A stretch of DNA of 64,000 bases from Nageia nagi (taxonomy: Eukaryota; Plantae; Pinophyta), in the NCBI GenBank assembly GCA_050084985.1, contig JBITNC010000001.1:184636001-184700000 (forward strand), in the 5' to 3' direction. Numbering within the stretch: position 1 is the first letter of the stretch; the number at the start of each line of letters is the position of its first letter. The notes under the pieces are model-generated. The model made no database searches. It saw only the letters and a program-made list of their open reading frames with translations, and had not been told where the DNA came from. The position numbers and the translations under genes were made by a program. Shown piece by piece: positions 4,700-45,646 of this stretch.

Positions 4700-7600
4700 A
4701 TTCTTGATGGTTCCAACTATGAGATTTGAGAACCTTAGATGAGAGCTAAATTACAAACAAGAAAGCTTTGGCAAATAGTGAATGAGAACCTTATACCTTC
4801 TATAGATGATAAGGCACTAGAGACTTACAACATGAAAAATGAATTAGCAACCTTTATTATTTACCATGTAGTTTCAAATGATGTGCTTCTAATAATTTCC
4901 TCTTCAACCATGATAAAGGAAGCATGGGATAAGCTTAAGAAAATCTACTTTGGTTCAAAATTTTTAAGAAGGTTTACCATTCTCCAAAAGTTACTTCAAT
5001 TTTATTAAGGGAAAGATGAAAATATGGCTATCTACTTGAATAAAATCATTGACCTAAGGACCTAACTTGTTGCTTGTGGGTGCAATTGGATCAATGATGA
5101 GTTCATGGTCTTCATCATTCTTTAAAATTTGAAAACTTTATGATGGTTATGGAAATAAGGCTTAATGATGAAGAAGAAGTCTTCTCCTTCCAAAATCTTT
5201 TAAAGCACCTATTTAAGCATGAGAAAGCCTTTAACAATAAGGTGTTGATTTCTTCTCCTAAGGATAATAATGTTGCTCTTAGAGAAATCAAAATTATTTT
5301 CAAGAATAAGTTCAACCATCAAAAGAAATTTTATCCTTCTTCCTCCAAAAGGTTTGAGAAAAGAGGCAATGGTTATAATAGTAGTAAAAATAATGGGAAC
5401 AATGGCAACAATAACCACTTCAAGTAAAGAGATTGAAAAGGTAAAGCAAATAATCCATATCCTAAGGAAAAATTTGATAGTAATTGTAACTATTATGGCA
5501 TTCAAGGTCAGAAAGAAGTTGATTGCTACAAAAAGAAAAAAAAAGAACAAAAGTAATAGAAATGTAAAAAAATTTAAAGGAAAGAAGAATATTTATACTA
5601 GTTTTGCTATAGTGCTTTAGTCCATGTCTCGCTCTTTTTCATCTGAATGGATTATTGATTATGGTTGCACTAATCACCATTAAGTTGTTGGGCTCTACTC
5701 TATGACTCACTCTTTCTCATCTAATTGGATTGTTGACTCTAGTTGCACTAATCACTTATGCTTTGAAAATGATAAGTTTGAAAATTTTCATAGCTATAGA
5801 AAATATGTAGTTATAATAGGTGATAATTCTATCCTTGAAGTTCAAGAAATTGGGAGTGTGTTGATTCATGGGAAGGTTCTTGAGAATGTGCTCTATGTTC
5901 CTAAGCTCAATATGAACCTTCTCTCCATTATTAAAGTTGCAAAGAAAAGATACTCATTTGAGTTTGACTCACACATTTGATGCATTAAGAAGGGACTTAC
6001 CATGTTGATTAAAGAATTAGTGAAAGATGATCTTTACATTATGGATCAAGTTCTAATGAAGATGTGTCTTGCTACAAATATATGATCTAGAGGTAATCTA
6101 TGGCATCAATATTTGGAGAACCTTAACCATAAAAGTATTAAAATCATGAAAGATCAAGAACTTATGGAAGGTTTTCTTTTAATTTCACCTTCAATTGGTT
6201 TGTGTGAGAAGTGCTTCTTAGGTAACATGAATAGATAAAGGTTTGAAAAAGATAAGGTAATAATGGCATCTCAACCTCTTCAACTTGTGCATTCATATTT
6301 GATGGGTTTATTTTAGACTTTATCATTTAAGGGCTAATCTTATGTCTTGACCTTAATTAATGAATTTAGTAGGATGAATTTTGGCTATCTACTTGAGCAC
6401 AAAGATCAAAATTTTGAGAGTTTCAAAAATTTTAAGGCCTTAGATGAAGATCAAACTAACCTTAAAACTAAAATGTTGAGAATAGACAATGGGGGAGAAT
6501 GTAACAATAATATGTTTAATATCTTTTGTGCTAAGTTTAAAATCAAAAAGTAGTTTACAATTCCTTACACTCCTTAGCAAAATGGTGTTGTTGAAAGGAA
6601 AAATAAGATAATTATGAAGATAGCTATATGCATATTGGATAATCTTCCTAATTTCTTATGAGATGAAACTATGAGCATAGCTATTTACACCTTGAATATG
6701 TGTGCCATAAAAAACATTCAAGGAAAAACTCCTTTTGAGATATGGTCAAGAATAAAACCTAACTTTTCATACCTTAGGGTGTTTGGTTGTGAAACATTCT
6801 CATACATTATTTTAGAGAAAATAAAAAAAATTAGATAAAAGAGTTGAAAAATGTATCTTTGTTGGTTATGATAGTCAACATAGAGGCTACAAGATTTACT
6901 TTCCATCCTATAGAGTAGTGTTCAAATTAAAGGAAGTAAATTTAAATGAACTTCTTAAAGAATCTAATTCTAATGAGGATTTTGATGATCTAGATGACTT
7001 GTTAGTTGAACTTAACTAGTTGGATATTAATATAGATAAGTCATTCTAGGAGCAAAATTCTTCAACACAAAAAATAACTAGGAGCATGCCCTTGAATAAA
7101 TCTTCATTTTTCCAAATTGATAATAAGAATGAGCCCTCATCATTCAAAGAAGCTTCAAAGCACGAGTGTTAGAAGGAAGCCATGAAAGTGGAGTATGAGG
7201 TGCTTATAAAAAATGAACCTTAGAACTTAGTTTCTTATCCCAATGAAAAAAATATGATAGGCAATAATTGGATCTACAAGATTAAGTTCAATTCTATTAG
7301 GGATATTAAGAAATACAAGGCAAGGTTAGTAGCCAAAGGTTTTGCTTAAAAATATGAAGTAAATTATAAAGAAACCTTTGCTCCCATGGTAAAGATGCCC
7401 ACTTTGAAATAATCCTTACTCTTTTAGAAGCTCAAAAATGGAAAGTTTTTTAACTTAATGTCAAGAATGTATTTCTCAATGGTGAATTATATTTGAAAAT
7501 ATACATGAATCAACCAAAAAGATTTATTATGGAAGGAAAAAAGTCATTTATGTGCATGTTAAAGAAGTCATTGTATAGACTTAGGCAAGCACCTAGAGAT

Positions 7601-19560: not shown

Positions 19561-20531
19561 GTTATGTATATATGAAGGGCTAAGATCACATATTACCTTT
19601 GAATTCTCTTCATTGGGAAAACAAAATAAAATAAACCTTCAGTCAAATTTTGAATCCCCTCAACTTTAATGTCATAAGATGTACAATAATTATGATTCTA
19701 GCTATATTATAGAATGAATGGGAATGTGACCCATAAAATATCCAATGAGGTTGTGGCTCTCCAACTAGCTGCAAATGCAGTTAAACTCATCAACAAGAAT
19801 GATAACATAAAGAATAGGGGATTACCTCATGAGACACCTTTGGGATTAACTTCCTTGGTTTGTTACCTGATACTATTACTTCTTCTAGTAGCTTCAATGC
19901 AGTTTGAAGCTACCAAAATGATATTTTCCATAATATAAAGCAAAACACCTCCTAAATAGTGAAAAAGGCTATTACATGGTGGTCAAAGCAAATTGTATTG
20001 TACTCCATAAAAACCAATGTGGTATGAAACCCTACATGAACAATCACTTTAATTTCAAATATTTTTTTAAAATTTTATTATTAATTTTACATCAATTTAT
20101 TATATAATATTCATTTTCTTCTATTATTAATAAGGTTGAGGTTTGATGATTATCATCACATTCATCAATGTAGATGCTTTTAACTATCAATTTTTTTGCC
20201 ATATTTGAGCCACTATCTCCCAAATCCAAATAAGATAAAGTTGTATAAAGGTTAAAAAAGTTAAAGTTTAGTCTTGGTAGAGACATTCCAATGGTGGGGA
20301 TACTCAACTTGCAACAACATGTTATGGATTCCATTGGCTAGAGGGGTGCATTAATAAAAGGCTAAGGGTCCTTTTCAAAACCTTCAATGTACTAAGTAAA
20401 ACAAAATTTATGTTTACATCCCAATGAAAAAAATAATTACAATGATTTTGATCTTGAAGATCATCATAATAATTTTTAGTATATAAATATTATTATAACA
20501 ATATACTAGTAAGATGTTAATAGGTTAATCA

Positions 20532-21418
20532 TGACCCGTAAATAGGAGTGGACTACCCCCTCTCTTAATGAATCAATTCACACTTAGAAAATTTGAAACT
20601 AAGTGCTTATGGAATTGAAAAGAGTAAAGGCAAAAAATAAACAATCACAAAAAATTTAAAGGACTCAGCAAGATACCTTGGTTTGGCACTCTCTAACCTA
20701 CATATAGAAAAATGCTCCTCTTATTCAATGGTATTTTTGGTGATTAATAGCAAGACTCAAAGGGATATTCTATCCTTCAACTCTTCTCTTAACCTTTTGA
20801 CACTTCTAAGCAGTTTAAAACCTTCATACTCATCTCTTGGCTGAAACAAAGGAAACACTAGCCTTTTTTAAATTTTAGGTTTAAACTATATCATCAAAAC
20901 AAATTTAGAATTATATGTAAAGTAATCATAGACTTCCACAATCCATATTTCTGATCTCTTATTCAATAGACTACCAAAAAATTTGAACCCACCTCATGCT
21001 AATAGCCTGCCTCTTTATATTTTACAAAGGTCTTCTTTTAAGTGACATTATAACAATAATATCCCTTGACTCTATTTGGCGAATAACAATTAAATATTGT
21101 TATTATCTATCTTAAATCACTATAGATCATGTTGTTTGAATATTCTCATCTTATAGATATTCTTAGCATAAACAGTTTTGAGGTTTTATCTTCAAATTTT
21201 GCACAAAGCCTTTACAATAATCAACTTCAAAATAGATAGTTACCTCCATGCATTGTATCACACAATCTTGAACTAATCCTTTTAGGGATAACAAGTTGAA
21301 ACAAATTCTATGAACTTGTCATCATGCTTAATATGGGATGTCAACTAAAATTAGAACCATATGAATATGAGATGGATGTTTACCATAAAATAGATTAATA
21401 GCCTCAAATAGATGTCTA
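20532..21418 (-). repeat. 3' LTR, left segment (U5-R-part of U3)
   Basis: Aligns to 29645-30536; 20728-21418 is repeated again at 25998-26669. Confidence 0.85.
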
Positions 21419-24400
21419 TCGCTATTTCTACCCAATGATAAATCAATTTGTGTAAAAGGTCATTAGTGAGTTATGCATCAGTCAGAGAGCCACTAAAGTA
21501 ATCACAACTCATGATTTTGGTATTACACCTTCTATATGCCATAAATAATTATTTCTCGATTATGGTTGTAAGATAAAAAAAACTTATATGAATAAACCAA
21601 GAAAGCCATATAGATCTTATGTAAAGAAGCCCAACCAAAGGATACCAAAACCATGTTCTTGTTACCCCAAAAAGAGATTTTCCAAAATATCTCATAAATT
21701 CAAAAAGAGAGATCAAGGAATTGGTGGGAAAACATGTTTTAATTATGGTGAGAAAGGTCACTTTAATTCGAGTTGTACCAAGCCCAAAAAGAAACAAATC
21801 AAAGCAATGATGAATAAGTTAAAAGCAATGAGAGAAAATAAGCCTACAAACTTTGATGAATTGGATTTGTATTCTAAGTATTTTGAAGAAGAAGAATCTG
21901 ATACATAGTCATATTCTAGTGAGTACACAATGGATAGTGACTCTAATGAGTCCTATCAGTCTTACTCTAAAAAAGAGTATTAATTAGCCTCAGATGATGA
22001 GTGTTGCATTCACTATGGGTATATGATGAGAAGGTCGAATCTCACTGATCCAAAAGAAATTGCAAGGCCACCCCAAGATACCATTCAAAATCTTATTAGT
22101 CAATGGGCTAGAGCTCTTGTTAGTGATTATACCACAAAATGCTTGAATCTCACATAAAGAGATTAAAGCTACATGACAATCCTCCTCAACCAATAAGAGC
22201 TACTCCTCTTCCATCATACACAAAGATCATGGAAAAAGCAAAGTCAAAGATACTTACTATCCCTTAAGAAATTCAAAATCTTAAAAGAGAATTAAAGAGG
22301 ATAGATAAGTTAGAATAAAGAGTAGATCAATTAGAGAAGGATAAGTATAAGCTTTATTAGGAAATGTAGCCAGGAACACATTAGATCCAAGGACCATCCA
22401 AGAATTATAGTGAATTAGATTTGGATTTAGATTTTGCTGAGGAAGCAGAACCAAGCATAAGATTTACTGATAATGTAGGACCAAGCAAAATCCTCATCAA
22501 AGAATAAGATAAAGCAACTATTTATGATGATCCACTACCATCACCAGAAGAACTAGTAAATCTTGAAGTACTAAAAGTAAAACTTATGATAGCAAACCTT
22601 AAATAAATCAAGGTAGATGTGTTTCTCACTCCTATTTTAACCTAAGAGTTCACTACTTTCTTAGATACTGGAGCTACTGGTAGTATTATTCATCCTCATA
22701 TTGTTCATCCTAGATATGTTATTCCCTACTCTGGTATATTCAGTTTCATTGATGGTTCTATGGTCTCTACTAAAGGTCAAGTTGAAAATTTGAGATTTAT
22801 CTTTAATAGAAAATATTTTTTCCATGATTTCTTAGTTTTAGATTCAAGGACTAGAATGCTGTTAGGATTTGATTTATTTGAGAAATATATCCCTATATCT
22901 TTCACAAAAACCACTTTTCAAATTACTATGAAATATGGTATATTAGAAAGCCCTTATACTACATTTAGCAAAAAGAGTTAGATTTCATTCCTTTAAAAAA
23001 AGTAGAAAATAGACTAGCAGTCCTAAGCCTAGAAAAAAGAAGGGTTACTGCATAGTCTCAAATCCAAAAAGAAAGAATGAAATTAGTCAGTTTCTACAGT
23101 CTTTAGTAAAGGATTATTGTTTAGAAGATCCTCAAGCTTTTTGGAGCTGAGAATATTATGAAGTTAGCCTCCCTCTAAAACATGAAAAAATAAAAGTCCC
23201 TACAAAGGCTAACTATATTGCTATGTCTACTAAAGATAGGAAAGTTATGATAGAAGAAATAAAAGAACTCTTGAAGAAAAAACTAATCAAAAAATCTTCT
23301 TCTAGTTGGGCTTGTTCTACATTTTATGTGGAAAAATATTCTAATATTGTTAGAGGTAAAAAATGACTTGTCATTAATTATAAACCTTTGAATAAATCCT
23401 TACAGGATATTAGACATCCAATTCCTAACAAGGTTGATCCGATTAGAAGGTTAAAGGATTGTGTTATTTTTTAGAAAAAGATGGGTACAATACTGGCTTT
23501 GTAGTACCAGTCTTAAATAGACACTATGAGTAGAATGTCATGCCCTTCAGCCTAAAAAATGCTCCATTAGAGTTTCAAAAAAAGCATGGACAATATCTTC
23601 TTAGAAAAGGTACAAGAATTTGCTATTAGGTATATATATGATATTCTTATTGCTTCACTATCTTTAGATGAGCATTTCAAACATTTAATGATTTTCAAAG
23701 AACTAGTTATTGCTCATGGCTTAGTCCTTTCTGCCAAAAAGGTGATTCTATTACAAACTGACATTAAGTTCTTGGGGCATAAGATTAGTAATGGCTCTAT
23801 TTAGCTACAACCACATGTACTTTCCTTTGTACATAATTTTCCTGATAAAATTATTAATAAAAAAACAACTACAAAGGTTTCTTGGTTGCTATAATTATAT
23901 CTCTCCATTATATGAGAAATTTGCATTTGACAGAAAGTTGCTTAATGAGAGACTTCAAAATGATCCTCCAACATGGACTGAAAAACATATTGTTGCAGTA
24001 TGAAGAATTAAAGAAAGATGTGTTAATCTTCCTCCAATGTAGATTCTAGATAATCCAATCCAAAGGTGTTAGAAATTGATGCATCTAATGAAGGATGTGA
24101 TGTTGTCTTAAAATAATGTCAATAAGATGCAAGTGGTAAGGTTGTAGAATCCATCTATTCTTATGCTTCGGGTTGTTGGAAAGGTGCACGGTTAAAGTAT
24201 CATTCTACAAGACAAGAGATATTAACTTCCAACATGGGCATTAAGAAAGTTTAGTTATATATTTGTAATGTTCTATTTGTTCTTAGATCTGATTTCATTA
24301 ACATGAAAGGATCTCTTCAAGGTAAACTTGTCGAAGATTCTACTTCAGCACTTATGGTAAGAATTTAGTCTTTCTTTTCCTATTTCAATATTACATTCAA

Positions 24401-25997
24401 ATATTATAAAGGAAGCAAAAATGTAGTTGCTAATTTTTTGTCTAGAGAAGCCCTTCTCAGCTCTAAACTAGTTTCTCAACAAGGATCCAAAGTGTTGTAT
24501 ATACATTCTTGTAAATTTTTGTATGAAGAAACACATACCAAATAACTTTATCATGTTAATTTTGTTGAAAGTCATCAGATATGGTCTATCATAAATAGAC
24601 TAAAGCATACCAGAATGTAAGAATATTATATTGCTCAATGATGGGTTATGGATAATATGTTCATAAATATCACAAGACCTTCCATGACATATGATAGAAA
24701 TCTAGAATATCCTCATCTTCCTTATCTCATGCCTTTTATTTATGTGGAGAATAGAGGTCATAAATATATGTCTTCAAACACACTGTGTAAAGAAGAATAT
24801 TTTATCAAACAAAGAGCTCTAAATCATTTAATGAATTTATTTTGGCAATTTTTGGATCCACATGCAAACATTAGTGATCATTTCCCATTTCATTTGTGAC
24901 ATAGGGCACATAGTACAATTCCAAAATTCTACTCCAAGTACTTTAGGGTTTCCAAGAGATCTTGATGAATTCACTAGTGGATATCGAGAGCGGTTAGCCA
25001 CATGGCTTCCCAGTAGAATTACTTGGGATAATAAGATTTATTCTGATGATGGCCCTGATTATACATTTTCTCAAGAAGACATTGTTAGATTTTTTATTGA
25101 AAATCATATCCCTTGGGAAATCCATAACAAAATTGAGTTCACCAGATCTTTCTATTATCCACATAAAACTGACATTTATGCTAAGACTATTATTTGGTGG
25201 GATAATACATTCTCTAGAAAAAAACATTCATGATTGGTTTTATCATGGTGCCTCTATTCCATCTTGGTCTATTCCTGAATTCCATCCTGCACAAGTTCAC
25301 ACATGCAAATTCAGATGCCACCCAGTTATGGTGGTCAATGAACATCATGGAAACCATACACATGTCCAAGTTTGGACACTTGGATCTTCTCCCATTTCTA
25401 GAAGTTCAAATTATCCTCCACCATCTCTTGATAGTGATATTAACATACACTCAGAATAAAGGAAGACGTCATGGGCCCATAACCCATGTGTTCATATTCC
25501 TATTTTATCGAGGTGTGATAAGATGGTGGAGCCCATAATAGCTTCCCAAAGATGCTATGGGTGTTGGCATCCGCTAGTGGTATTTATCTTCCATGTGGAT
25601 AAAGTTACTTTATGTCACCTCCATCTACTGTTATTCTTATGGAGTATCTTTAATGATGGAGATATAGATCTAGCTTAGAGTAGATATAAACTGTCCATAA
25701 GGTTATAAATAAGAGAATGCATGAATTATTCGACATTTAATTGGAGTTGGCATTCAATTCACTAGAGGTTTAAGAGTTCTAGAGTAGTCTTAGGTTCAGC
25801 AGCATAGTAAGACCTATGAAACTCATGTTCGTAGTACACTACTATACTTACTTATAGGGTTGAGATTAGAAGCTATGACCAACTAAATCATTTGTAGTAT
25901 GTCAAGATTTAGAACAGTCTATTTTGAATGTATGTATATGTTATGGAAAAGTTTCAATATATGAAAAGCTTTCTTGCAAAACTTGGTTTATCTACAT
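21419..25997 (+). mobile_element. Endogenous Caulimoviridae (florendovirus/petuvirus-like) partial genome: CP C-terminus, aspartic protease, RT, RNase H, C-terminal domain, intergenic region
   Basis: CP basic region and knuckle CFNYGEKGHFNSSC (~21735-21776) with acidic tail; protease FLDTGATGS (~22658); DPQAFW..VSLP..PTKA linker; RT LVINYKPLNK, NVMPFSLKNAP, YIYDILIAS; RNase H EIDASNEG, IKGSKNVVANFLSRE; no integrase; movement protein absent; all frames decayed. Confidence 0.9.
25704..25711 (+). promoter_or_regulatory. Probable TATA box of the viral pregenomic promoter
   Basis: TATAAATA in the non-coding region after the last viral ORF, about 290 bp before the TGGTAT junction, the usual position in Caulimoviridae. 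Confidence 0.5.
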
Positions 25998-27898
25998 ATG
26001 GTATTTTTGGTGATTTACAGCAAGCCTCAAAGGGATTTTCTATCCTTCAACTCTTCTCCTAACCTTTTGACACTTCTAAGTAGTCTAAAACCTTCATATT
26101 CAGCTCTCGACTAAAATAAAGGGAACACTAACCTTTTTAAAGTTCAGGTTTAAATTACATCATCAAAACAAATTCAGACTTGTCTGTAAAGTAATCATAG
26201 ACTTCCACTGTCCATCTTTTTGATTGCTTGTCTATCAAAATACCAAAAACTCTGAACCCTCCTCACGTAACTAGCCTGCCTCTTTATATTTTATAGAGGT
26301 CTTATTTTAAACAACATTACAACAGTAATATCCCTTGACTCTATTTGGCCAATAGTAATTAAAGGTTGCTATTATCTATCCTGAATCACTATAGATCATG
26401 TTGTTTGAATGTCCTCATCTTATGGAGATCCTGAGCATAAATGGTTTTGGGATTTTATCTTCAAATTTTGCGCAAAGCCTTTACAATAGTCAACTTCAAA
26501 ATAGACAATTACCTCTGCGCATTGTCTCACATGATCTTGAACCAATCCTTTAAGGGATAACGAGTTGGAACAAATTCTATGAACTTATCATCATGATTAA
26601 TATGGGATGGAGAATAAAAATAGAATCATACAAATTTAAGATGGATGTTCACCATAAAATATATAGTCTACTATTAATGAGATGGTGGGTTTTACAAGTA
26701 GGTCTGGATGTCTCTCCATTTCAACTCTATCCATATGCAAAAGACTCTGCATACATGTCAGATACATTTTACATTATTGACTTATCTTCTATTGCTGACT
26801 GTGTTGGGATTAACGTTGTTGGTGGATAGTGTATTTGTGGGGTTTCCCGTAGATAATCACCATATATGTTGGCAAAGTCTAACGACTTAAATTGCCATCC
26901 CTTTACCTCCAATGCGCAAATAATCCTATCCCTCTTTACATTGCATAGTCTTTCAAGGTTGTGATTTATACTTGGCAACAAATAGTTGTGTCACTTGTAT
27001 TCGGATAGTTTTGACTCTTTTACTCATCGAATATAACATCCTACTCATTCGCTATGATGATGTTATAGTCACAACTTATCATGGTCACATTGGATCTTAT
27101 CTTCGCTATATTGGTAGACAATAAAGTATTTATTGGCTCTATTCGGAGATAACAACAAGCCACCAAAATGCGGATTCAATATGCATAACATTAACCTCAA
27201 CGTATTCCACATTGCTCCCCTCCATATTGGCATCAAATGATATTCCTTTAACTACTCTCGACATTGGCTAGGTTCCATTCTGCATAGCTGGAAATAGGTT
27301 TTGATTTTCCCATGTTTCTTGCATCCATTTTGATAAGGGATGAAGATTCCCTTGGTGCAGCATTTTTATTTCAAAAATAATAACTCATTCACTTAAATGA
27401 TCTTTACAATAATCATGCCCTTTCCCTCTCAGCTAGATAACTCCCTTCATGTGGAATCCGCTAGTAGTTTTACTGCCAATTCATATATTATACACCACTA
27501 ACAACTTCCAACTAGACATTGATGATTTTTATCTCATGGCGTACATGACTTAGGATGGATTGGCATATAATGGATGACTTCAATACACCCATTCAATGTC
27601 AATATAACACGGCTTGCATATATCATATTATTTAAACCCATATTTCTTTTGATCTCCATTAATAAAATATGAGACCATAATTAATTACCATGAAAAATAA
27701 TTTATTTTGATAATTTAAATAACAATCTTTAATTATTATTTTATGAAAATATGACTTCAAATCATAAAACTTTCTCATAATTAATTACTTTCATCATCAC
27801 CATGGAATCTTAGAGAAAATACCTTCGATTTCAGAAGAGATATTTTATTGAAGAGAGAGATTAACTTTCACTATTGAATGGATCCAAATTTTGAATCA
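25998..27898 (-). repeat. 3' LTR, right segment (R-U3)
   Basis: Aligns to 29843-31723; ends ccaaattttgaatca next to the PPT. Confidence 0.85.
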
Positions 27899-28099
27899 TA
27901 CCTCCCAAAGGAGAAATAGCTTTCATCTTGAAAGCATTCATACTTTAACACCATTTCTATAGGAGCATTATTGGTTCCATATTGCTACTCAAAAATGAGG
28001 TGAGGAGACTCTCCTCCTACCAAATTTGGCTGCCAAACCTTCTTCCCTCTACCACACGAAAGAAGCTTCAACCAAGGAACCTCCATATCTAACTTCCTA

Positions 28100-29560
28100 G
28101 AATTAATGTTTGTCTTCATCCACTACTCGGAGTGGAACTCTATCATAAAGTTGTACCTTGCCACTATAGTTCATCTTGAACCAATCACTAATCTCACATA
28201 ATATAACACATAATATTATGAATAGAAATATGAGGAATTCATATCCTTTATCAATCATGCTCAGGGAGTAACTTACCACTTTCAAGCACATATGACCCAT
28301 ATTGAAGGATCCTTGATTATCTGCAACCTTCTCCTTGCCCACCTTCTTCTGGATGAGGCTCTCAAGAAGAGGAATTTTATTCCAAATCTTATAGCATATT
28401 AAGAAACAAATATCATCCTTCATTAGTTCATAAATATTTCTTCATCAATGATACACAACATTGTGATCCCACAAATATAGATTCCCAAGAAGTAAACAAC
28501 CAACTTGAAGTGGAAGGACATCTACAATGACTTCATCAACAAAATCATTACTGATGAAAAACTTCACTTTACACTTTTGTGTAACCATAATCTCTCCCAT
28601 ACCCATAAAACATGAGTAGGATGTAGGATGTAGAGTTAGCTCTAATCCTAAGTCCTTGATAAGAATTACGACAATAAGGTTCGATTATGATCCAATATCG
28701 AATAAGGCAATGATTTTTATCTTATTCATATTCACTACTAGATGAAAAAGTTTCTCTCACTTGTTGGAAGACACTGGAGCTCTCACACCCATGAATGCAA
28801 GCTTCTTTGCACTCTTACCATCATTATTAGATGAAATCAAATGCTTCTCCATTGCTCTTCATTGGATATTATGACATGCTCTCAACACATTTCCCTTTTG
28901 TCTACATTACACATTGACTACTCTTTGCATATCAGGTTCTCTTTTTGATGTATCTCCCTCAACACCATGAGTAACAATAGATTCTAAACTCTTCTTTTCT
29001 TTGAGGTAAAACACACTCAAATCTTTGAGTTTAGACGATGTAGGAGATGAAAAGGGTGAAGTAGAAGGTGAAGTTGGTATAACACTCTTCTCCCTTCGAC
29101 GGTAAACATGCCCAACAAATCTATAAGATTTCCCTTTCAAAGAAGATGGCAATGAAAAAGGAGTCTCTTCTACATCCCTCAAATCATACATTTTCTTGGC
29201 TGGCTTACACCTCTGTTTGCAACACCTCTAGCAATTACACTTATGATGATCTTCTTTGCCACATAACTCATACACCAATCTTAATGTGGGTTTCTCTATA
29301 GAAGTACCATGAATAGGAGATGTCATCTCCATAGGCACAACAACATTCTTCCCTTTGGAATAAATCTCCATCATTTTGGGTGACACTAATGCAAATTGCT
29401 CACTCAAAACTGATTGGTTGATTTGAGCTTTAGCCATTGAAGATGTCCCCCCTTGAGTACTCGGCATGAACCTTATTTGAAGTTTACCAACAACCTTAAT
29501 CAAATCTATCACTTGGTTTTCCAACCATGTGATACGAGAATTATGATCATCAAAAGCCAT
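28100..29560 (-). pseudogene. Reduced gag (coiled N-terminus + zinc knuckle) and Gypsy aspartic protease
   Basis: YELCGKEDHHKCNC knuckle; protease ALFDIGS*SNLI ... FVDEVIVDVLPLQVGCLLLGNLYLWD (~28460-28710). Confidence 0.75.
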
Positions 29561-29644
29561 TAAGCAAGAATGGGTAAGCTACACAACTATCTTATAGAAA
29601 ATTCAGTTCCCTAACTGACGAAACTGTGCTCAGATACCAAAAAT

Positions 29645-31723
29645 TGATCCATAAACAAGAGTGGACTACCCCCTCTCTTAACAAATCAATTCACACTTAG
29701 ATAATTTGAAAATAAGTACTTACAAAATTGAAAAGTGTAAAGATTAAAAAAAATAATAATCACACAAAATTGAAAGAACTAAGCAAGATATCCTAGTTTG
29801 ACCCTCTTCAACCTACATCTAGAAAAATATTCCTTTTATTCAATGGTATTTTTGGTGATTTACAACAAGCCTCAAAGGACCCTTCTCTCCTTCAACTCTT
29901 CTGCTAACCTTTTGACACTTCTAAGCAATTTAAATCCTTCATACTCAACTCTCAGCTGAAATAAAGTAAACACTAGCCTTTTTAAAGTTCAAGTTTAAAC
30001 TACAGCATCAAGATAAATTCAGACTTGTCTGTAAAGTAATCACAGACTTCCATAGTCTATCTTTCTGATCACTTATCTGGCATAATAGCAAAAAAATCTG
30101 AACCCCCCTCATGCCAATAGCCTGCCTCTTTATTATATTTTACAGAGGTCTTCTTTTATGCGATGTTACAACAACAATATCCCTTGACTCTATTTGACCA
30201 ATAGCAATCAAAGATTGATATTGCCTATATTGAATCACTATAGATCATGTTGTTTGAATGTCCTCATCTTGTGGAGATTCTAGCATAAATGGTTCTGGGA
30301 TTTTATCTTCAAATTTTGCGCAAAGCCTTTACAACATTCAGCTTCAAAATAGACAGTTACCTCCGCACATTGTATCACACGATGTTGAACCAATCCTTTC
30401 AGGGATAATGAGTTGGAATAAATTCTACGAACCTATCATCATGATTAATATGGGATTTCGAGTAAAATTAGAACCATATGAATCTGAGATGGATGTTCAC
30501 CCCAAAATAGATTGGTAGCCTCAAATAGATGTATACTACTGATGAGATGATGGGTTTTACAACTAGGTCTGGACTTCTCTCTATTTTACCTCTATCCGGA
30601 TGTAGAAGACTCGGCATACATGTCATATATATTTTATATTATTGACTTGTCTTCCATTCCTGACTGTGCTGGGATTAACGTTGCTGGTGGCTAGTGTATT
30701 CATGGGGTTTCCCATAGATAATCAACATATATGCTGACAGAGTCTAACAACTTAAATCATCATCCCTTTACCTTCAATGCGCAGATAGTCCTCTACCCCT
30801 TCACATTACGTAGTATTTTAAGGTTGCGATCTATACTTGGTAAGAAATGATTGCCACAACTTATCATGTGCGTGCAGGATCTTATCTTCTCCACGTTGGC
30901 AGGCAAGAAAGCCTTTACTAGATCTATTCGGAGATAACAAGAAGCCTCCAAAATGTGGATTCCACATGCACATCATTAACCTCTATGTAGTCCATGTTTA
31001 TCCCCACCATATTGGAATAAAATGACGTCCCTCTAACTGCTCTCGACATTGGCTGGGTTCCATTCTACGTAGCTGGAAATAGGTTCTGATTTCCCAACTT
31101 TTCCTGCATCCATTATGAGAAGGGATGACGATTCCCTTGGCGTAACATTTTTATTCCCAAAATGACACTCGTTTACTTTAATGATCTTCAGAATAATCGT
31201 GCCTTTTATCTTTCATCTAGATAACTCCCTTCACGTGGAATCTGCTAGTAGTTTTGCTGCCAATTCACATATCCTACACCACTAACAGCTTCCAACTCGA
31301 CACTGACGACTTTTATCTCATGGCGTACATGAATTAGGATGAATTGGCATATAATGGATGCCTTCAATGCACGGGTTTAATGTCAATATAACACGGTCTG
31401 CATATATCATATTATTTAAACCCATGTTTCTTTTGACCGCCATTATTAAAATCTGAAACCATAATTAATTACCAAGAAAAAATAATTTACTTTGATAGTT
31501 TAAATAATAATATTTAATTGTTATTTTATGGAAATATGGTTTCAAATCACAAAACTTTCTTGACGATCATAATTAATTACCCTTGTCGCCACCATGTAAT
31601 CCTAGAGAAAATACATTCAATTTTCACAAGAGATAGTTTATTTAAGAGAGAGATTAACTTCACCATTAGTTTATTTAAGAGAGAGATTAACTTCACCATT
31701 AAACACATCCAAATTTTAGATCA
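29645..31723 (-). repeat. 5' LTR (2079 bp)
   Basis: TGA..TCA termini, adjacent PBS, TATA-like ~30130-30142 and AATAAA 29835-29840 on minus; small tandem duplication near 31635-31700. Confidence 0.85.
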
Positions 31724-31868
31724 AATGATAATAACTTCTTTGTGTTATTTCAATTTTAATCATATTTGTTAATACATTTATTATTTACTAATATTTATCA
31801 CTTGTTTACTTTCAATTGAACTTATAATTATCATAATATGTTTTAATAATTAATTATGTTGTATTACT

Positions 31869-33725
31869 GGGTGAGTGTATGAGGTGGTGAGAAGTCATGG
31901 GGGTGAGGGAAAAAGCTACAATAAGATACTAAGGTGTTTAGGTGTGGCCAGGATATACTGTTGTTGAAAGTCGTTACATCTCTCAGTAGGATGGGGTTTC
32001 ATTCCTAGCTCAACTCTTAGAAACTATGGGCATCAGCTATGGAGGTGCCCAAATAATCTTGGTGGAGCTTATTTTCTCAAGAAGCTATGGTTGATTTTGG
32101 ACCCCCATTGTAGGCAAAAAGACAAGAAGAAAAGATCCGCTTAAAAATCTCAAACTCTATCATCAATCAATCTATGGAAAGAGAAAAATTTATCCTAGTA
32201 GACTCCATAGAGCTCGTCCCAACATTGATTCGATTCGAAAATGGGTGAAACTAAAATGGAAAATCAAAGGACATGTTGGGGTAATCGCAAATTTCAATGA
32301 TTATTTCATGTTTATTTTTGATAATGCAAAAGATCAAGATTACATTTTGAGTGTACCCTAGTTCTTTGGAAAGAGAGGTTTATTCCTGGAGAAATGGTAA
32401 TTAGGTTTCAACCCTTCCAAGGCCAACATAATGAGAACCCCAATTTGGGTTACACTCTCACATTATCCCTTCGAGTTTTGGCACCAAAGAGTATTTGAAG
32501 CAATTGCAAGTTCCATTGGCAAATTTATTACAGTTGATGAAGTCGCAAATGCATGGACAAGATTCATAGAAGATAGATTTTGCATTTTTATTGAATTTGG
32601 AGTCAAGCTCCCAAAGACAAAAGTGCTCAAACATGATCTAAGTGAGTATATTTATGAACTACAATTTGAAAAGAATAATTTCTTATGTCCAATATGTAAC
32701 CGGGTTGGGCATAACATTAGTTCTTGTGCTACTTAAAAAATATGAAGATCAAAATTAAGGTAGGTTGAGCAGATTTTGAATATGGATAATGGCTCTCCAC
32801 AAATAGAAGTGGCCTCTAGCACCAATTAGTAGGATTCCAGTAATAAGAAGGTGGATTAGGCCCTAACTTGTATAATACAAAGACAAAGGAAAGGGCCTTT
32901 GACATAGCTTTTGCAAACCCAGGGAAATTTTAAAATCAGAATGGTTTAAATGGAAATGATATAATTAACAATAAAGAGACCAACATTGATAATGCATTGA
33001 TCTTGGATATAGGATCCCTAGTTTTGATCAATGTAGTTGATGAAAGGATCATGGGTGCATCGGATGTGGCTCCAGTGATTATGGAAAATGTCAATAATAA
33101 TGAGCCTAGTCCTAATTTAGTCACCATAAAATAAAATATTGAAAATATAGATCACATGAATGGCATCTTAGACTTGCAATCTCAGAATTATAGTTGGAAA
33201 GAGGTAAATCCCAAAAAGAGATGACAAAAGGATCAACTAGGATACTTATCTGATTATGATGATAACAAAAGCACTAGAGGTAACCATAGAATCCTAAGGA
33301 GTGCTTCAAAAAAGCTTGATGTTGGACAAAGACATGTTGGAAAACCAAGTGAAGGAGAGATTAGAGAAAAAGAAAATGCCAAAGAAGTTGCAGATGGCAA
33401 ACAATTAACAATAGATGGTTTCGAAAGGGAGTTCCTTCTAAAGCATGAAAGAAAATGAGGTTACTATAGTTGATATCTGGCTTCAACATTGCAGTTGGGG
33501 TGGTTGATTTACAATTGATTGAAAGGATTTCCATTAGCCATGTATAGAATTGGATTTAATTGTTGTAATTATGTAGGTTATTAAATGTATATCCTATTCT
33601 ATATAAAATAAATAGTGATAGGTTGTTGTCAATACTGTTAAAAATTTGTTATTACAGGTGTTAGGTACATGTATAAAAATCCCCTCAATTTACCAGGTGG
33701 TCTTTTTTGGGTCCCAACAAAAACA
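31869..33725 (+). mobile_element. ORF1-only L1-derived LINE (HAL1-like) with A-rich tail and 17-bp TSD
   Basis: DUF4283-type ORF1 (PIWVTLSHYPFEFW, IASSIGKFITVDE, knuckle CPICNRVGHNISSC) ending ~33448; no endonuclease or RT; tail aacaaaaacaa; direct repeat AATTA(T/G)GTTGTATTACT at 31852-31868 and 33726-33742. Confidence 0.75.
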
Positions 33726-35166: not shown

Positions 35167-35874
35167 TGTAGATGCCTAAAAATGATTTATTATTTATCTA
35201 ATAAATCATATTTAGACTTCCTAAATGACTGATTACAATATTACAAATGTCAATATAAAGTTGACATTACAATGCAATTCCATGTGTTATATTAAATTTT
35301 GTATTGTTTACAATGGTTCATATTTTAAAGTATCTTGAATGCAACAAAGTTTATATTATTGCTAGAGGTCGGCCTTCACTCCTTTCTATATCTTTGCAGG
35401 CTATATATGAGAGTGGAATAGTATGACCTCTACAAATTATAACTCTTTGATATGATAAGATCTCTAATATGTGGTTGTCTATCGCAATATTCATTAAACA
35501 ATGATGTCTCTTGATGCCACCTATTATGAGAAATTGTTATAATTTGAGCTCTAAAAATTTCTATCTTTAATACACTATATAATTTTGCATATTCAATGCT
35601 GTTAACAATGTACATCTTAAGGATCGAGGGTTCCAAATTTTGATGGTCAAATTCATTAATTAATACATGTGAAGATCCATCATGAGCTCACCTCCAATCT
35701 AATCCTAATCCTATGAAGATTCATTTTTATTTGATTTTGAGGATTGCACATACACTTCATATCAAGTGCAAGCTTTTTATGTATATTTATCATATCTGAT
35801 AAATGGTACATATCTATCTCTTCTTATATTGTAGATCATTTATAAATTATATTTTACATAATTTAAGGTATTCA
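35167..35874 (+). repeat. 5' LTR
   Basis: tgtagatgcctaaaaat ... aggtattca; homologous to 50266-50984. Confidence 0.85.
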
Positions 35875-39211: not shown

Positions 39212-41727
39212 GGGGATGGAACCATGTCTCAAAATACAACCTAGTGGGATGCATTACTACCACTAATCCTAGTATCTCTAGGCCTATAAACTCTATTAGA
39301 GTTGCTACTCTATCTAGAAATGGACATCCCACTCAAAACCTCACTAGAGCTAATCCCATAAGAGGCGAATATATCCTTGGCTCTCTCATATTTCCTACTA
39401 AGTATAATAATATCTTTGTCTCTTCTCGATTTTATCCATAAGTTGCTTGATAAAAGCCCATTGCTCATTAGGTGGAGGCATATCCATCCTCTCCTGCAAC
39501 CTCTTCATGGACTGATCCATGGATGCTACTTGTGCATCCCTAACCATAAGTGTGGACTCAAGAGTGGATAGTTGTGATTCCAAGTTAGAAACCCTAGCCT
39601 CAAAAGGCTTTAGCCTCTCAATGTGTGCCTCTAAGGTAGTAATATGAGTAACTATCTCTCTTGTAGAACACATAGAGATCATATGTTAGTTTGTTTTCTA
39701 TAAACATATTAATAAAAAGTTAAAAAATTATAAACCTAAAAGTATGTGATAGAGTTTTACTTACTAAGATAAGTGGTACAGTCTCAACAAAGGCCTCTAG
39801 TCTTGGAGTTGGTACAAATGATTATCTCTATATTAGTGTATCATGCATGGAGTTATCAATATTCTACTCTTCCTCATTAGAATATTCCTTTGAGGTAGAG
39901 AAAAAATCATCCCCTCATCCTCATCCTCATATATGCCTAATGGGGTTGGTTGATCTATCTCCCATCATGTCATATAACCCCTCACCATACCCAAGGCCAT
40001 GGAAGTGGGCTCAATGGGGTCCAAGGTTTGAGGCTCCTCCCTTATAGTCTTCCATGCAAGCATGATTTGTGTCCCTGGTGGGGTGTCTCTCTTGGCTTTC
40101 TACCAGATATAGTAAATTGGGGTAGGTGGAATGCCCTATCAAATCCTAAACTTTCTAAGTACTTGTTATGGCAAGTATTGCTCTATGAACTTCCTTATCC
40201 TATTAAGAAAGTAGGGTTGTATAACCCACACAAGCTAGTGGGCTTCCTCCTCCCACACATAGCTTGCAAAGGATACCCACACTAGGTCCTTTTAATAGAA
40301 TTTATCGATCTCCTATCTCCTTGCCTCTAGGGTGTGTGGGTACATATTGTGAGAGGGTGACCTCTCATGACCTAGGGTGTGAGTGGTTCTAGAGAAAAAC
40401 CTCTAATACATGAGGATACATTCCAAACCTAACTACTATGTAGAAGAATCATGGAAAACTTTGTGAGAGAGAGTCCATTTTGGTGGTTGTACTAATGAGA
40501 TAGTTAGGGTGAATAAAGCTCAAGGGGACCTTAGGGGTGATTCCCATATGAAGGTCCTTGGTTGGGAGGTGAGTAGAGTTCCCATTGGGTTCTCATGTGT
40601 GGTGCTTGATGATGTGAATCTTGGAGCCTGAGAGGCCAGGATGAGCCATAAAGGCCATGGCCTTTGGTAGTGTGTGACTATGGAATTAATGGATGTTGGA
40701 TAAGTCTTAGCCTAGGTAGGCCATTGAGGGTCTATACATGAGTTATCGCATGGTACCAAGCTTGGGTCATGTCCTCAAGGGTGGCTCAATCTGGTACTAT
40801 GATAGATGGTATTAGAGCACTTCTAAGGGTTTGGGTATAAGATGATACCAAAAATTGAATGCACTGTGCTAATGTGACCCACATGAGGCATGTGTATATC
40901 AGGTGATGGTTTCTCTCCCTTGACTTTGCTTAAGGAAGTAGGTTGAGAGTGTGCACTATGCCAGTTGGCCTATGCTGAGATGCATTATGACCTACCATGG
41001 TCGCATCTTACCATTTGGGTTGTGTACATGTGGAGGCATGTTGCACCTTCCCATGGTGGTACTCTATATGAGCCCATATAAAATTGAAAAGTGTTCATGT
41101 TGGGGTGTGATTCATCAATAAAGGTAGCACCTCACCATTTGTGGATTTCAACTTGGAACTTCATTTCTCAGACCTTAATTTTAGGTAGATGGGACTTGGA
41201 GTGTTTGCTTAAGGTCGCTCAGGTGGAGCTGATGTATGAGGCTGATGGGCATGCATGTGATTCCCCATAGGACATGTTGGAGTGTTGAACATTATATGGA
41301 GGCCATGCTCTACCTTTCTTATGCTCCATTAAGGAGTGGAACTTATAGTTATAAATGTTTTTCCTTTATTTTTTATTGGAACCATGCCATGGATTCTAAG
41401 CTCTCCAAGGAACATCCTGTAAAAACACACATACGTGCATTATTATAATACCAAGCCCAATAAGGAAATATTAAAAGAACTGCAATGCCGTTAGGGGTAG
41501 GGTGTGTACCAAAGTCAAGGAGTTGCCTAAGGAAGCAGCATGGGTGCATCTTGTATTTCATAATATGTAGCAATGCATCCCTCCTAGAGACCCATAAAAA
41601 CACTATAGAGAGTCAGTTGGGTGGGGGAATTATGTGTGCACTTTATGCCTATGTTGTTGATGCCTACTTGTGTATGCATGTGCTCTTTATTATGCTCAAC
41701 TTACTTTCCTTAGTAAATCTTAATATT

Positions 41728-42156
41728 TATGTCGAATGCTGATCGAACCTCATCATTAGATGTAGGTAGAAATTGGAAAGCTTGACTTGGATTAAGGTTT
41801 ATGCTAAATGTTGATCAGAACTCATCATTTGATGTAGGTAGAACTTGGAAAGCTTTACTTGGGTTGAGGTTTATGCCAAATGCTGATCGTACCTCATCAT
41901 TAGATGCAAGTAGAACTTAGAAAGCTTGACTTGAACTAAGGCCTATGCCAAATGTTGATTAGACCTCATCATTAGATGTAGGTATAACTTGGACAACTTG
42001 AATTAAATTGAGGCCTATGCCAAATGCTGATCAAATCTCATGATTGGATGTAGGTAGAACTTGGAAAGCTTGACTTGAACTAAGGCCTATGCCAAATGTT
42101 GATCAAACCTCATCATTGGATGTAGGTAGAACTTGGGAAGCTTGATTTGAATTACC
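41728..42156 (+). repeat. Tandem array, 6 x 72 bp, in the leader of the Galadriel-like element
   Basis: Unit tatgccaaatg(c/t)tgatc..cctcatcattagatgtaggtagaacttggaaagcttgacttg.. starting at 41728, 41800, 41872, 41944, 42016 and 42088. Confidence 0.9.
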
Positions 42157-42476
42157 TATGCTAGCTGGGAATCATGGTTCAATATCCTTAAGAGGAGTGT
42201 ACTTTGTGTATTTATGGGATAGAGATACCAAAATGTCATCTAAGGTTCCTCAAGTGGGTGAACAAGGTGTGGAACCTATAGTGGGGGCCCAAGAGAAAGT
42301 GCCAACTATGGAGCAAGGTATTCAATGTGGTGAAATAGCTCAAGGCCCCATAATGTGACCACCTACAATGTTGATCATCTCTCAACAGCATAAGAAGTGA
42401 TTGGTTCATTTCCATAGGATAGTAGATGGTGAGATGAAAAAGGAATTAGCTTTATTGAAGAAAGACCAACCAACCC

Positions 42477-45400
42477 TGATGCATGCGTTGCCGGGGCCGT
42501 AACTTTTGATCCGGAGGTCGTTTTGCTTCGAAATTTAAACTGTGGCTTCGTGACGAAATTCCAGTTATGGGAGTTCGCTAGAACTGCCATACCCAAAAAA
42601 TGATATTTTTAAGGCCTGATTCATCCGTCTAAGGCCTGAAAAATAGGCTTTTTTTAGAGCACTCCTGATTTTTAGGCTTTTTTTGCATGTTGCGCCTTTA
42701 GTAACTCTTGTTTTTCGTCTAGTTAAGGGTGGATATTTTAGATACTGCTTAATTAGTGTAAGAGGGATGCGCATGCAAATTTTGGGCGCAATCCGACTCA
42801 TTCTGGTTTTTTTGTTTTTTTTTGTGGCTATTTAAAGGGCATTGTATTCTCTTGGAGAGCATGTGGGTTCAGGAATAAGAAGAGTGTTTTTGGTCTGAAT
42901 TTCTTCTGTATGTTCTGTGACTGGAATTCAATTTCTGTTTTCCTGTTATAGCTGAATTCACATCATTTGGTATCAGAGCGGGTGTGATCTCGCTGGGAAA
43001 ATTGAAGAAGATGCCACCTAGGAGAGGAGGCAGAGCACCTAGAGGTGCCTATACTCAAATGAGTAGGCAGATCGAGGATCTGCAAGCCCAAATAACGCGA
43101 CTAACTGGTGCAATTGAGCGCATGGCAGAGAGAAATATGAATACCCATCCAGATCCAAGATTTGATGGTGAAAGTACAATTGATGAAGTTGGATCTGAGG
43201 TTCAGACGGATGCAGAACAAGAAGACCTAATGGGAGATGGTCAACGTTTTGAGAATCGGTTGATACGGGCTCTAGAAGGGCTTCAAAGAAATAGTGCCGG
43301 GATCAAAATTGAGATTCCTGAGTATGCTGGTGGATTAAAACCAGAGGAGTTGATCGATTGGATCAATAGCCTAGAAAAATATTTTGAATGGAGTAACCTT
43401 GCTGAAGAAAAGAAGGTAAAGCTTGCATGCACGAAGTTGAAGGGACATGCATTAATTTGGTGGGATCACCTACAGAATACACGGCAAAGGGATGGCAAGG
43501 ATAAGATCAGAGATTGGGCTAAAATGAAGAAGAAGCTAAAAGGGAAATTTATACCTGTAGACTACTCCCAGACCCTATTTCGCCAATTCCAAAATTTGCG
43601 ACAAAAGGAACGAAGCATTGAGGACTACACCAATGACTTTTATAAGCTTTCCATTCGAATAGAACCAAATGAAACAGAGGAGCAAAAGGCTGCAAGATAT
43701 GTAAATGGTCTGAACTTTGTTATTCAAGATGAAATTAACATGCATCGCACTCCTACTGTGGAGGATGCATATCAAATAGCCCTCAAGGCTGAGGAAAAAT
43801 TGAGAAGGACCAATCGAGGAGGAAAGAAGGGACTCACACCTTCGAATCGGGGACGAGGAGGATCTAATTTCTCCAAGGGAGAATCCTCCGTACCCACTAA
43901 ACAAGAAGAGGCAAACCAAAGTCAGAGAGGAAGAGGTAATGGAGGGGGTCGATCTACTACTGGCACACGGAAACCATTCATATGTTATAGATGTCATGAA
44001 GAAGGTCACAAGGCATCTGAATGTCCCACATATGATGCTGAAGAGAGGGGAAATGCTAGGGTTGCTCTAGTTGAAGAAGAAGAAGAAGAGGAGGTTGAAA
44101 CAGAAGTTTCTGCAGATATGGGTGAGAACCTGATGATAAGAAGAAACCTGATTGTTCCAAGGGAGGAGAACATGCAAGCTGAGGATAGTGGTAATTGTTG
44201 GTTACGTACCAATATCTTTCATACAAGATGCACAACAGGAGGAAAGGTATGTAACATGGTAATTGATGGTGGTAGTTGTGAAAACATGGTTTCTACTGTA
44301 ATGGTTGATAAGTTGAAACTCAAATGTCAGAAGCACCCATGTCCATATCGTGTTTCATGGATCAAGAAGGGAAATGAGGTAACTATTGATAAGAGGTGTC
44401 TAGTAAAGTTTTCCATTGGGGATACTTATAAAGATGAGGTATGGTGTGATGTAATTCCCATGGATGCATGTCATATATTATTGGGGAGACCATGGCAGTT
44501 TGACAGGAAGACTCATCATGATGGAAGTAAGAACACTTACACATTTTGGAAAGATGGTGTAAAGGTGGTTCTTTTACCCCTTAAGGAAGACGCCCAAGGA
44601 CAAAGCCTTTTGACTGCAAAAAGATTTCTCACAGGAGCACGTGAAGTTGGTTGGTGTTATGCATTACCTGCACCAAAGGTGGAAACAAGGGAGGAGGTTC
44701 GGGCACAATTGCAAGAGAATAATAGTAAGCATAAAGCAGTAGCAGATACACATAGGCGAGAAAAGATTTTTCAGGAGGGCGACTTAGTGATGGTCCGCCT
44801 TCGTCAGGAGAGGTTTCCCAAAGGCACCTATAATAAGTTGAAGCTGCAGAAGATTGGTCCATGTAGGATTCTGGAGAAAAGGATCACCAATGCATATAAG
44901 GCTACAACTCCGATACAATGGGAGCAACAAGTTCCTAAGAAAAAGAAGGAGCGCATTACACAGATTCTTGATCGGGCAGTGTTCAACACTCGACATGGGA
45001 GCTATACCAAGTACCTGGTACAATGGGAAGGGCTATCACCAGCAGATAATACATGGGTTTCAGAGGGGGTAGTAAAGAGGATTGCTACTGATAAACTTCA
45101 GGCATTCAACAGCAGAACTCGCAGGAGCAGAGTTCCTTTTAACCAGAGGAGAATGATGCATGCGTTGCCGGGGCCGTAACTTTTGATCCGGAGGTCGTTT
45201 TGCTTCGAAATTTAAACTGTGGCTTCGTGACGAAATTCCAGTTATGGGAGTTCGCTAGAACTGCCATACCCAAAAAATGATATTTTTAAGGCCTGATTCA
45301 TCCGTCTAAGGCCTGAAAAATAGGCTTTTTTTAGAGCACTCCTGATTTTTAAGCTTTTTTTGCATGTTGCGCCTTTAGTAACTCTTGTTTTTCATCTAGT

Positions 45401-45641: not shown

Positions 45642-45646
45642 AACCC

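What the first reader, a model, noticed from the sequence alone, without database searches (positions are those of the whole stretch)
20532..27898. Pararetrovirus genome inside a retrotransposon LTR, joined at the viral tRNA-primer site and flanked by a ~690-bp LTR duplication
Seen: the 3' LTR runs 20532-21418, switches to 4.6 kb of opposite-sense Caulimoviridae DNA, then resumes about 690 bp back in the LTR (20728-21418 repeated at 25998-26669). The re-entry is ...tctacata-TGGTAT-ttttggtg, about 290 bp after the viral TATA box. Known: caulimovirid minus-strand DNA starts at the Met-tRNA site TGGTATCAGAGC, leaving a discontinuity there. Inference: the viral copy ends at that discontinuity and was joined through TGGTAT microhomology. 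The re-entry point lies a few nt from the LTR AATAAA, near the 3' end of the element RNA, and the three LTR copies look similarly diverged by eye. Capture may therefore date to about the time of transposition (template switch between retrotransposon and viral intermediates) rather than later break repair. The 5' LTR lacks the insert, which fits DNA repair better. The host element has no RT of its own, while the cargo encodes one.
Basis: partly seen in the sequence, partly recalled or inferred. Interest (0 to 1): 0.8.

Follow-up and report, generated by a model that had tools for sequence, protein, structure and literature searches.

The report
Plant virus fossil patched into retrotransposon
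A decayed 4.6-kb piece of a plant pararetrovirus sits inside one end-repeat of an old retrotransposon, between two copies of a 690-base stretch of that repeat; it likely got there by chromosome break repair soon after the retrotransposon landed, joined at what is likely the viral primer site, which makes it an unusually legible example of a known kind of virus integration rather than a new mechanism.

Summary
The structure is real. A non-autonomous Ty3/gypsy-type element (minus strand, 31723-20532, TG...CA ends, 4/5 target duplication, Met primer site, protease but no RT) has its 3' LTR split by 4,579 nt of opposite-sense, broken caulimovirid DNA. The LTR resumes 690 nt back, at its only TGGTAT. 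The three copies of the repeated segment carry 48, 40 and 41 private changes, so the duplication arose within about the first fifth of the element's age. A short-read contig bridges the left junction; nothing covered the right one. The viral primer site could not be seen in a relative, so it is inferred (about 85%); a templated-patchwork reading of that junction remains. Endogenous caulimovirids commonly end at the Met-tRNA site (77% of complete almond Flo-1 copies), the nearby AATAAA is not independent evidence, and a 17-nt deletion sits at the seam where a repaired break would close. Best reading: early break repair with a virus-plus-LTR filler (0.6). Capture during reverse transcription is not excluded (0.15): the timing fits, and long direct repeats are deleted during reverse transcription, which could leave a clean 5' LTR.

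The parts
20527..20531 (.). target-site duplication, left copy (AATCA)
   Evidence: matches right copy at 4 of 5
20532..21418 (-). 3' LTR, distal part (copy A: putative U5, R and about 430 nt of U3), ends in CA on the element strand
   Evidence: 84% to 5' LTR 29645-30535; U3/R/U5 borders inferred from a TATAAA candidate at about 21019, no transcript data
20728..21418 (-). duplicated LTR segment, copy A (691 nt)
21419..25997 (+). partial, decayed endogenous caulimovirid (4,579 nt): end of putative coat region, protease, RT, RNase H, an unrecognised downstream coding stretch, 3' non-coding region
21402..21905 (+). putative coat-protein C-terminal part with a decayed zinc-knuckle-like motif; its first codons overlap the junction
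   Evidence: motif and position only (motif recalled); no Pfam hit
22646..22981 (+). viral aspartic protease remnant (LDTGA motif)
   Evidence: weak Pfam hits below cut-off, E about 0.07
23064..24545 (+). viral RT and RNase H remnant, with stops and frameshifts
   Evidence: RVT_1 E 2e-7; RT_RNaseH E 2.5e-6; best relatives are caulimovirid-type polyproteins incl. Pinus nigra virus 1, 31-35% identity; tree
24642..25459 (+). broken coding stretch downstream of RNase H, at the position of an ORF2-like or C-terminal region
   Evidence: open frames; no Pfam family, no Atlas match above 0.77
25704..25709 (+). putative viral TATA box
   Evidence: TATAAA; a second TATAAA at 25685; function inferred
25998..26004 (+). 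right junction word ATGGTAT: LTR sequence, and likely 7-nt microhomology with the viral Met-tRNA primer site
   Evidence: only TGGTAT on this strand of the LTR; viral side not seen in any relative
25998..26669 (-). duplicated LTR segment, copy B (672 nt)
   Evidence: 85% to A, 86% to 5' LTR
26657..26669 (.). seam: 17-nt deletion private to copy B, between 8-nt direct repeats, just before the LTR position at which copy A meets the virus
26670..27898 (-). 3' LTR, proximal part (rest of U3), begins TG on the element strand
27899..29644 (-). internal region, 1.75 kb: decayed open frames and a retrotransposon-type aspartic protease (about 28448-28723); no RT, RNase H or integrase
   Evidence: Atlas 0.96, RVP_2/Asp_protease_2 clusters; no tblastn hit from 7 gypsy-type Pol polyproteins in this interval
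29628..29639 (-). element's own Met-tRNA primer site (11 of 12)
29645..31723 (-). 5' LTR, uninterrupted, 2,079 nt (copy C of the repeated segment = 29843-30536)
31724..31728 (.). target-site duplication, right copy (AATGA)

Best explanation
A broken piece of caulimovirid DNA and a second copy of 690 nt of LTR lie together inside the 3' LTR of an old non-autonomous gypsy-type element, and were likely put there as filler during repair of a chromosome break soon after the element had inserted normally. Shown: intact element ends and target duplication, insert in one LTR only, three equidistant copies, junction at the LTR's only TGGTAT, a small deletion at the seam. Inferred steps: the 3' LTR broke at about 21418/26665; the left end joined or copied viral DNA from the coat region to the end that open-circular or linear viral DNA offers at the minus-strand gap; the viral plus-strand 3' end, reading ATGGTAT into the primer site, annealed to the complementary word in an LTR template (sister chromatid, the 5' LTR, or its own arm); synthesis ran about 670 nt to the break position and annealed to the right end, losing 17 nt between two AAATAGAT repeats. 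The insert then decayed neutrally with the element.
For: Canonical TG...CA ends, primer site and 4/5 target duplication show an ordinary integrase insertion. Only the 3' LTR is interrupted. The one indel over 3 nt inside the triplicated segment is private to B and falls at the seam; 3 indels of 10 nt or more occur in 1.9 kb, so about 8% by chance, noticed after the fact (my arithmetic). Endogenous caulimovirid ends cluster at the Met-tRNA site (PMC13658181 section 3.2) and at the discontinuities (PMC526188 passages). Proximal repair duplications up to 619 bp with 2-9 nt microhomology and 1-15 nt deletions are documented in vertebrates (PMC2671141). Virus and element look contemporaneous: 7 listed relative contigs differ by 13-18%, and 6 stops in 639 in-frame codons match 5.1 expected at LTR-level decay (segments were partly chosen as open frames, so the count is biased low).
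Against: The timing sits at or near zero: likelihood ratio 6.5-12 for 'at insertion' over a uniform later time. The viral primer site was not observed in any relative. The 25 nt before the junction resemble two blocks just upstream in the LTR (empirical p 0.012-0.015 against A, 0.14-0.25 against C, joint 0.02-0.05), so the real virus-LTR border could lie about 16 nt further left and TGGTAT could be plain LTR. No (TA)n run lies within 100 nt of either junction, unlike many endogenous caulimovirids. The seam deletion lies between direct repeats and could be later slippage. The right junction has no read support.
Confidence: 0.6

Rival explanations
1. Capture during the element's reverse transcription. 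Minus-strand synthesis on the element RNA switched at U3 onto viral minus-strand DNA, ran to its primer end, and jumped back via ATGGTAT onto R of a second element RNA; the chimera was integrated by a helper integrase, and the 5' LTR lost virus plus one repeat by direct-repeat deletion during plus-strand synthesis.
For: Star-like divergence with best fit at time zero. The re-entry lies inside the putative R, 3 nt from the 5' LTR's AATAAA. Direct repeats of 701 nt are deleted at over 90% and switching rates are similar on RNA and DNA templates (PMC3187697 passages), which would explain a clean 5' LTR and no amplification. The route has been proposed for pararetroviruses (PMC10377300, PMC8256270 passages).
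Against: Needs two non-homologous switches (at least 1000-fold rarer than homologous ones), a viral minus-strand DNA template inside a retrotransposon particle, and a third event to clean one LTR. AATAAA proximity is forced by the single TGGTAT. It does not predict a lesion at the seam. No second locus with either junction was seen, though run X1 is shallow and its tables were cut.
Confidence: 0.15
2. A virus-LTR chimeric DNA formed outside the chromosome (viral plus-strand end priming on element RNA or cDNA at ATGGTAT) and then entered the resident 3' LTR by homology at its LTR end and by end-joining at its viral end.
For: Explains the single interrupted LTR, the star tree (B from an active sister RNA), the primer-site junction and a seam at the end of B. 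Integrase-independent insertion into existing copies is described for Tf1 (PMC10377300 passage).
Against: No free or multi-copy chimera seen; needs co-location of viral and element intermediates; cannot be told from the best explanation with three sequences.
Confidence: 0.1
3. Repair as in the best explanation, but without primer-site homology: the junction is a patchwork of short LTR-templated blocks (polymerase-theta-like), or B came from another family member by ectopic exchange next to a pre-existing viral insertion.
For: LTR-like blocks left of the junction (joint p 0.02-0.05). A star tree is also what a same-age sister element would give.
Against: Must treat the exact landing on the only TGGTAT (about 0.3-0.5%) 295 nt after a TATA candidate as coincidence. 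The left junction shows no such patchwork (p about 0.2). The target duplication is kept.
Confidence: 0.12
4. Assembly artefact.
For: No contig covered the right junction; no long reads were available.
Against: Copies A and B differ by 15%, far beyond assembly error; a 563-nt contig with one mismatch bridges the left junction by 266 and 297 nt, although run X1 may be the same sample.
Confidence: 0.03

Closest known systems
Endogenous caulimovirids ending at the Met-tRNA site (almond Florendovirus-1, PMC13658181; rice eRTBV-like, PMC526188)
   Same: Decayed chromosomal caulimovirid DNA with one end at the inferred minus-strand discontinuity.
   Different: Here the end joins an LTR through a matching TGGTAT, there is no (TA)n flank, and a 690-nt host duplication brackets the insert; the almond study reports no target duplications.
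eBSGFV within a Ty3/gypsy element in Musa balbisiana (Gayral et al. 2008, seen only through the review PMC10377300)
   Same: Caulimovirid DNA inside a gypsy element; the same open question of one-step chimera versus two steps.
   Different: Here the virus interrupts one LTR, the host is non-autonomous, and a third LTR copy gives an internal clock for the capture.
Repair-mediated duplication by synthesis-dependent strand annealing (PMC2671141)
   Same: Proximal duplication of several hundred bases with short microhomology and a small deletion at the breakpoint.
   Different: Described in vertebrates, up to 619 bp, with fillers of 1-68 nt; here a plant locus with a 4.6-kb viral filler.
TR-GAG non-autonomous LTR elements (definition in PMC6022998)
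   Same: Two LTRs, primer site, short internal region with protease and no RT, RNase H or integrase.
   Different: A Gag domain was not detected by Pfam here.

Membership tests
Caulimoviridae (endogenous) | RT/RNase H grouping with caulimovirids rather than Metaviridae | tested here: met
   Tree of 16 rows: insert in the 8-row set with Pinus nigra virus 1 and two coat/movement-domain polyproteins, 100/99; caulimovirid-type hits E 1e-49 to 1e-59 vs gypsy 1e-13
Caulimoviridae (endogenous) | order CP-AP-RT-RH with no integrase | tested here: met
   AP, RT, RH in order, no integrase hit in the insert; CP by motif only
Caulimoviridae (endogenous) | movement protein | tested here: inconclusive
   No hit; the fragment starts downstream of where it would lie
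Caulimoviridae (endogenous) | Met-tRNA primer site in the intergenic region | tested here: inconclusive
   Only TGGTAT at the junction, shared with the LTR; no relative covered it
Florendovirus | RT clade membership and specific ORF2 | tested here: inconclusive
   Insert is an unresolved branch, at most 49% identical to any row; downstream stretch has no family hit; no labelled Florendovirus reference was in the tree
Ty3/gypsy-derived non-autonomous LTR element (TR-GAG type) | paired LTRs with TG...CA, target duplication, primer site | tested here: met
Ty3/gypsy-derived non-autonomous LTR element (TR-GAG type) | Gag and/or protease without RT, RNase H, integrase | tested here: inconclusive
   Protease met, RT/RH/IN absent, Gag not detected
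Retrotransposon-virus chimera integrated by integrase | chimera present at insertion (cargo as old as the LTR pair) | tested here: inconclusive
   Time zero fits; up to about 0.2 of the age also fits
Retrotransposon-virus chimera integrated by integrase | same junctions at several loci with different target duplications | not testable with these tools
   No genome held; one shallow run
Repair-mediated (SDSA-type) templated insertion | microhomology at the switch and small deletion at the closing seam | tested here: inconclusive
   Both are present as predicted but the microhomology depends on the unseen viral side and the deletion could be slippage

The most novel reading that the evidence does not exclude
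This is a fossil of a reverse-transcriptase template switch between a caulimovirid and an LTR retrotransposon: the viral primer end served as an illegitimate strand-transfer word onto the element's R region, the chimera was integrated by a helper integrase, and direct-repeat deletion cleaned the 5' LTR. It would be sequence-level evidence for the long-proposed retrotransposon route of caulimovirid endogenization.
Probability: 0.15. Interest if true: 0.75.

Novelty: new member of a known kind. Interest (0 to 1): 0.38.

Why it matters
How caulimovirid DNA enters plant chromosomes is still described as speculative, with break repair and retrotransposon-mediated capture as the two hypotheses (PMC10377300 passage). 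This locus has readable junctions and a built-in three-copy clock, so it shows what to measure: junction microhomology at the primer site, seam lesions, and copy ages. As one decayed locus it cannot decide the question; a genome-wide count of such loci could.

Tried and rejected
Own genome: none held, so no genome-wide junction search. Sequencing runs: 1 run listed, 7% of words, no RNA holder listed. Reads on the right junction: 2 contigs laid, neither reaches 25998; uncovered places prove nothing. Related loci: 0 in viral contigs for two queries; 3 metagenome loci at 21% identity, not used. Pattern scan for a primer site after the insert's terminal motif: 0 matches in viral contigs. Earlier findings: nothing for this genome or relatives, two unrelated notes by words. 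Fold of 25730-26004: no better than shuffles, z +1.05; compatible with a primer site ahead of the leader stem-loop as in badnaviruses (PMC5902531) but weak in a decayed copy. A 9-nt word shared between the LTR junction site and the element's own primer region is chance-level (108 of 500 shuffles). Left-junction patchwork rejected (p 0.16-0.20). The free-rate fits had not converged and were replaced. Homolog search for the element's protease found nothing; the representative-protein search never left the queue. Recent duplication (A and B much closer to each other) rejected: stem fraction 0.3 is 3.6-5.8 log units worse.
Full report
Anatomy. Self-comparison of the window and alignment define an LTR element on the minus strand. 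The 5' LTR is 31723-29645 (2,079 nt), followed by a Met-type primer site at 29639-29628 with 11 of 12 matches, a 1.75-kb internal region, and a 3' LTR from 27898 to 20532. Both LTRs keep TG...CA ends and the flanks AATCA and AATGA form a 4/5 target duplication. The internal region holds a decayed retrotransposon-type protease (Atlas score 0.96 to RVP_2/Asp_protease_2 clusters). It gave no hit to seven gypsy-type Pol polyproteins, so the element has no RT, RNase H or integrase of its own. Gag was not detected.

The insert. The 3' LTR is split at 21418 by 4,579 nt of opposite-sense DNA and resumes at 25998, 690 nt further back. The insert carries, in order, a decayed zinc-knuckle-like motif (recalled motif, no tool hit), a protease motif, RT and RNase H, an unrecognised coding stretch and a non-coding region with TATAAA at 25704. 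Its best relatives are caulimovirid-type polyproteins, among them Pinus nigra virus 1, at 31-35% identity. In a 16-row RT tree it falls in the caulimovirid-type set with 100/99 support but on an unresolved branch, so the genus is open. It is a partial genome with stops and frameshifts.

Is it real? Copies A and B differ by 15%, so they are not an assembly duplicate. One 563-nt contig of run X1, with one mismatch, bridges the left junction with 266 and 297 nt on either side; X1 may be the source sample. Neither of the 2 contigs laid on 25640-26240 reaches the right junction.

Timing. In 671 gap-free columns the private changes are A 48, B 40, C 41; transversions alone give 11, 11, 12. Simulation and a directional C-to-T model with equal, grouped or free lineage rates put the best fit at or next to zero shared stem. 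They allow a stem of up to about 0.15-0.22 of the element's age and reject 0.3. The likelihood ratio for 'at insertion' against a uniform later time is 6.5-12 (2.5-10.8 in the simpler count simulation). The uniform prior is probably too generous: the 7 listed relative contigs over the insert differ from it by 13-18% (the 80% cut-off truncates this and strain diversity inflates it), and the stop load is 6 in 639 codons against 5.1 expected at LTR-level decay. Virus and element therefore seem to date from one period, in which an early repair insertion is unsurprising.

The right junction. The LTR match begins at ATGGTAT (25998). TGGTAT occurs once on that strand of the LTR, so an exact landing has about 0.3% chance. 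It lies 295 nt after the TATA candidate. Caulimovirid primer sites read TGGTATC(A/C)GAGC (bioRxiv 2020.12.02.407783 passage) and in some genera lie shortly after the transcription start (PMC5902531 passages). I could not see the viral side in any relative. Against the simple reading, the 25 nt left of the junction resemble two blocks just upstream in the LTR: empirical p 0.012-0.015 against A, 0.14-0.25 against C, joint 0.02-0.05 among 400 control windows. Weighing a 2-5% coincidence against a 0.3-0.5% one, I put the primer-site junction at about 85%. The AATAAA 3 nt away is canonical only in the 5' LTR and adds nothing once the junction word is fixed.

The seam. Copy B lacks 17 nt that A and C share, between two AAATAGAT repeats, just before the LTR position where A meets the virus. 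It is one of 3 indels of 10 nt or more in 1.9 kb, so about 8% by chance, found after the fact. It is where a repaired break would close if B plus virus were a filler.

Mechanism. The simplest reading is break repair with two template switches: left end to viral DNA, viral primer-site end to an LTR template by 7-nt homology, then annealing to the right end. Each ingredient is known. Breakpoints lie next to the Met-tRNA site in 77% of complete almond Flo-1 elements (PMC13658181, passages and section 3.2 read). Rice copies end at the intergenic region and discontinuities (PMC526188 passages). Proximal repair duplications up to 619 bp show 2-9 nt microhomology and 1-15 nt deletions (PMC2671141 abstract and one section). 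I give this 0.6. The RT-stage model has the same topology. It fits the timing, and the clean 5' LTR does not kill it, because 701-nt repeats are deleted at over 90% per cycle and switching also occurs on DNA templates (PMC3187697 passages). But it needs two non-homologous switches, a viral minus-strand DNA template in the element's particle and a third event; I give it 0.15. An extrachromosomal chimera recombining into the resident LTR (0.10), repair without primer-site homology or with B from a sister element (0.12) and artefact (0.03) make up the rest.

Prior art. Reviews name repair and retrotransposon chimeras as the two hypotheses and cite eBSGFV in a banana gypsy element (PMC10377300, PMC8256270 passages); Gayral 2008 and Jakowitsch 1999 were seen only second-hand. 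Florendovirus organisation is from PMC4241990 passages, the TR-GAG definition from PMC6022998 passages. Nine searches listed no report of a caulimovirid inside one LTR with a primer-site junction and an LTR duplication; the library lacks most subscription papers, and I did not see the Prunus paper's supplement on LTR-like loci with long direct repeats, which may bear on this.

Verdict. Observation confirmed; interpretation partly supported. A new, unusually legible member of a known kind. Interest 0.38; novel reading 0.15 probable, 0.75 if true.

Noticed in passing
window 42477-45641 (+): Young LTR element (LTRs 42477-42965 and 45154-45641, 99.4% identical, perfect Met primer site at 42968, purine tract before the 3' LTR, about 2.2 kb internal) nested inside an older one.
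   Followed up: no
window 40348-47366 (+): Older LTR element (LTRs about 89% identical, primer site at 40807) with a 72-nt tandem array at about 41656-42226 in its internal region; itself lies between LTR-like repeats 35167-35869 and 50266-50979 (84%): three levels of nesting.
   Followed up: no
window 32095-32736 (+): DUF4283 plus zinc-knuckle remnant, typical of a plant LINE ORF1 (family link recalled), 370 nt beyond the 5' LTR.
   Followed up: no
window 61639-63898 (-) and 6107-6745 (+): Decayed gypsy-type RT/RNase H/integrase at the window's right end and an integrase-like remnant near 6.1-6.7 kb.
   Followed up: no
window 20728-21418 vs 25998-26669 vs 29843-30536: C-to-T/G-to-A decay is uneven among the three LTR copies (32, 19 and 13 private changes), highest in the copy between the flank and the virus; free lineage rates fit about 6.5 log units better than equal rates. 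Could reflect different methylation histories.
   Followed up: partly
window 26987-27067 and 31659-31691: An 80-nt indel between the 3' and 5' LTR and a 32-nt tandem duplication near the outer end of the 5' LTR.
   Followed up: no
run X1 laid on window 27676-28200: Summed contig depth jumps to 24-103 over the LTR start and purine-tract region, against 0-12 elsewhere, suggesting many related elements share this stretch.
   Followed up: no
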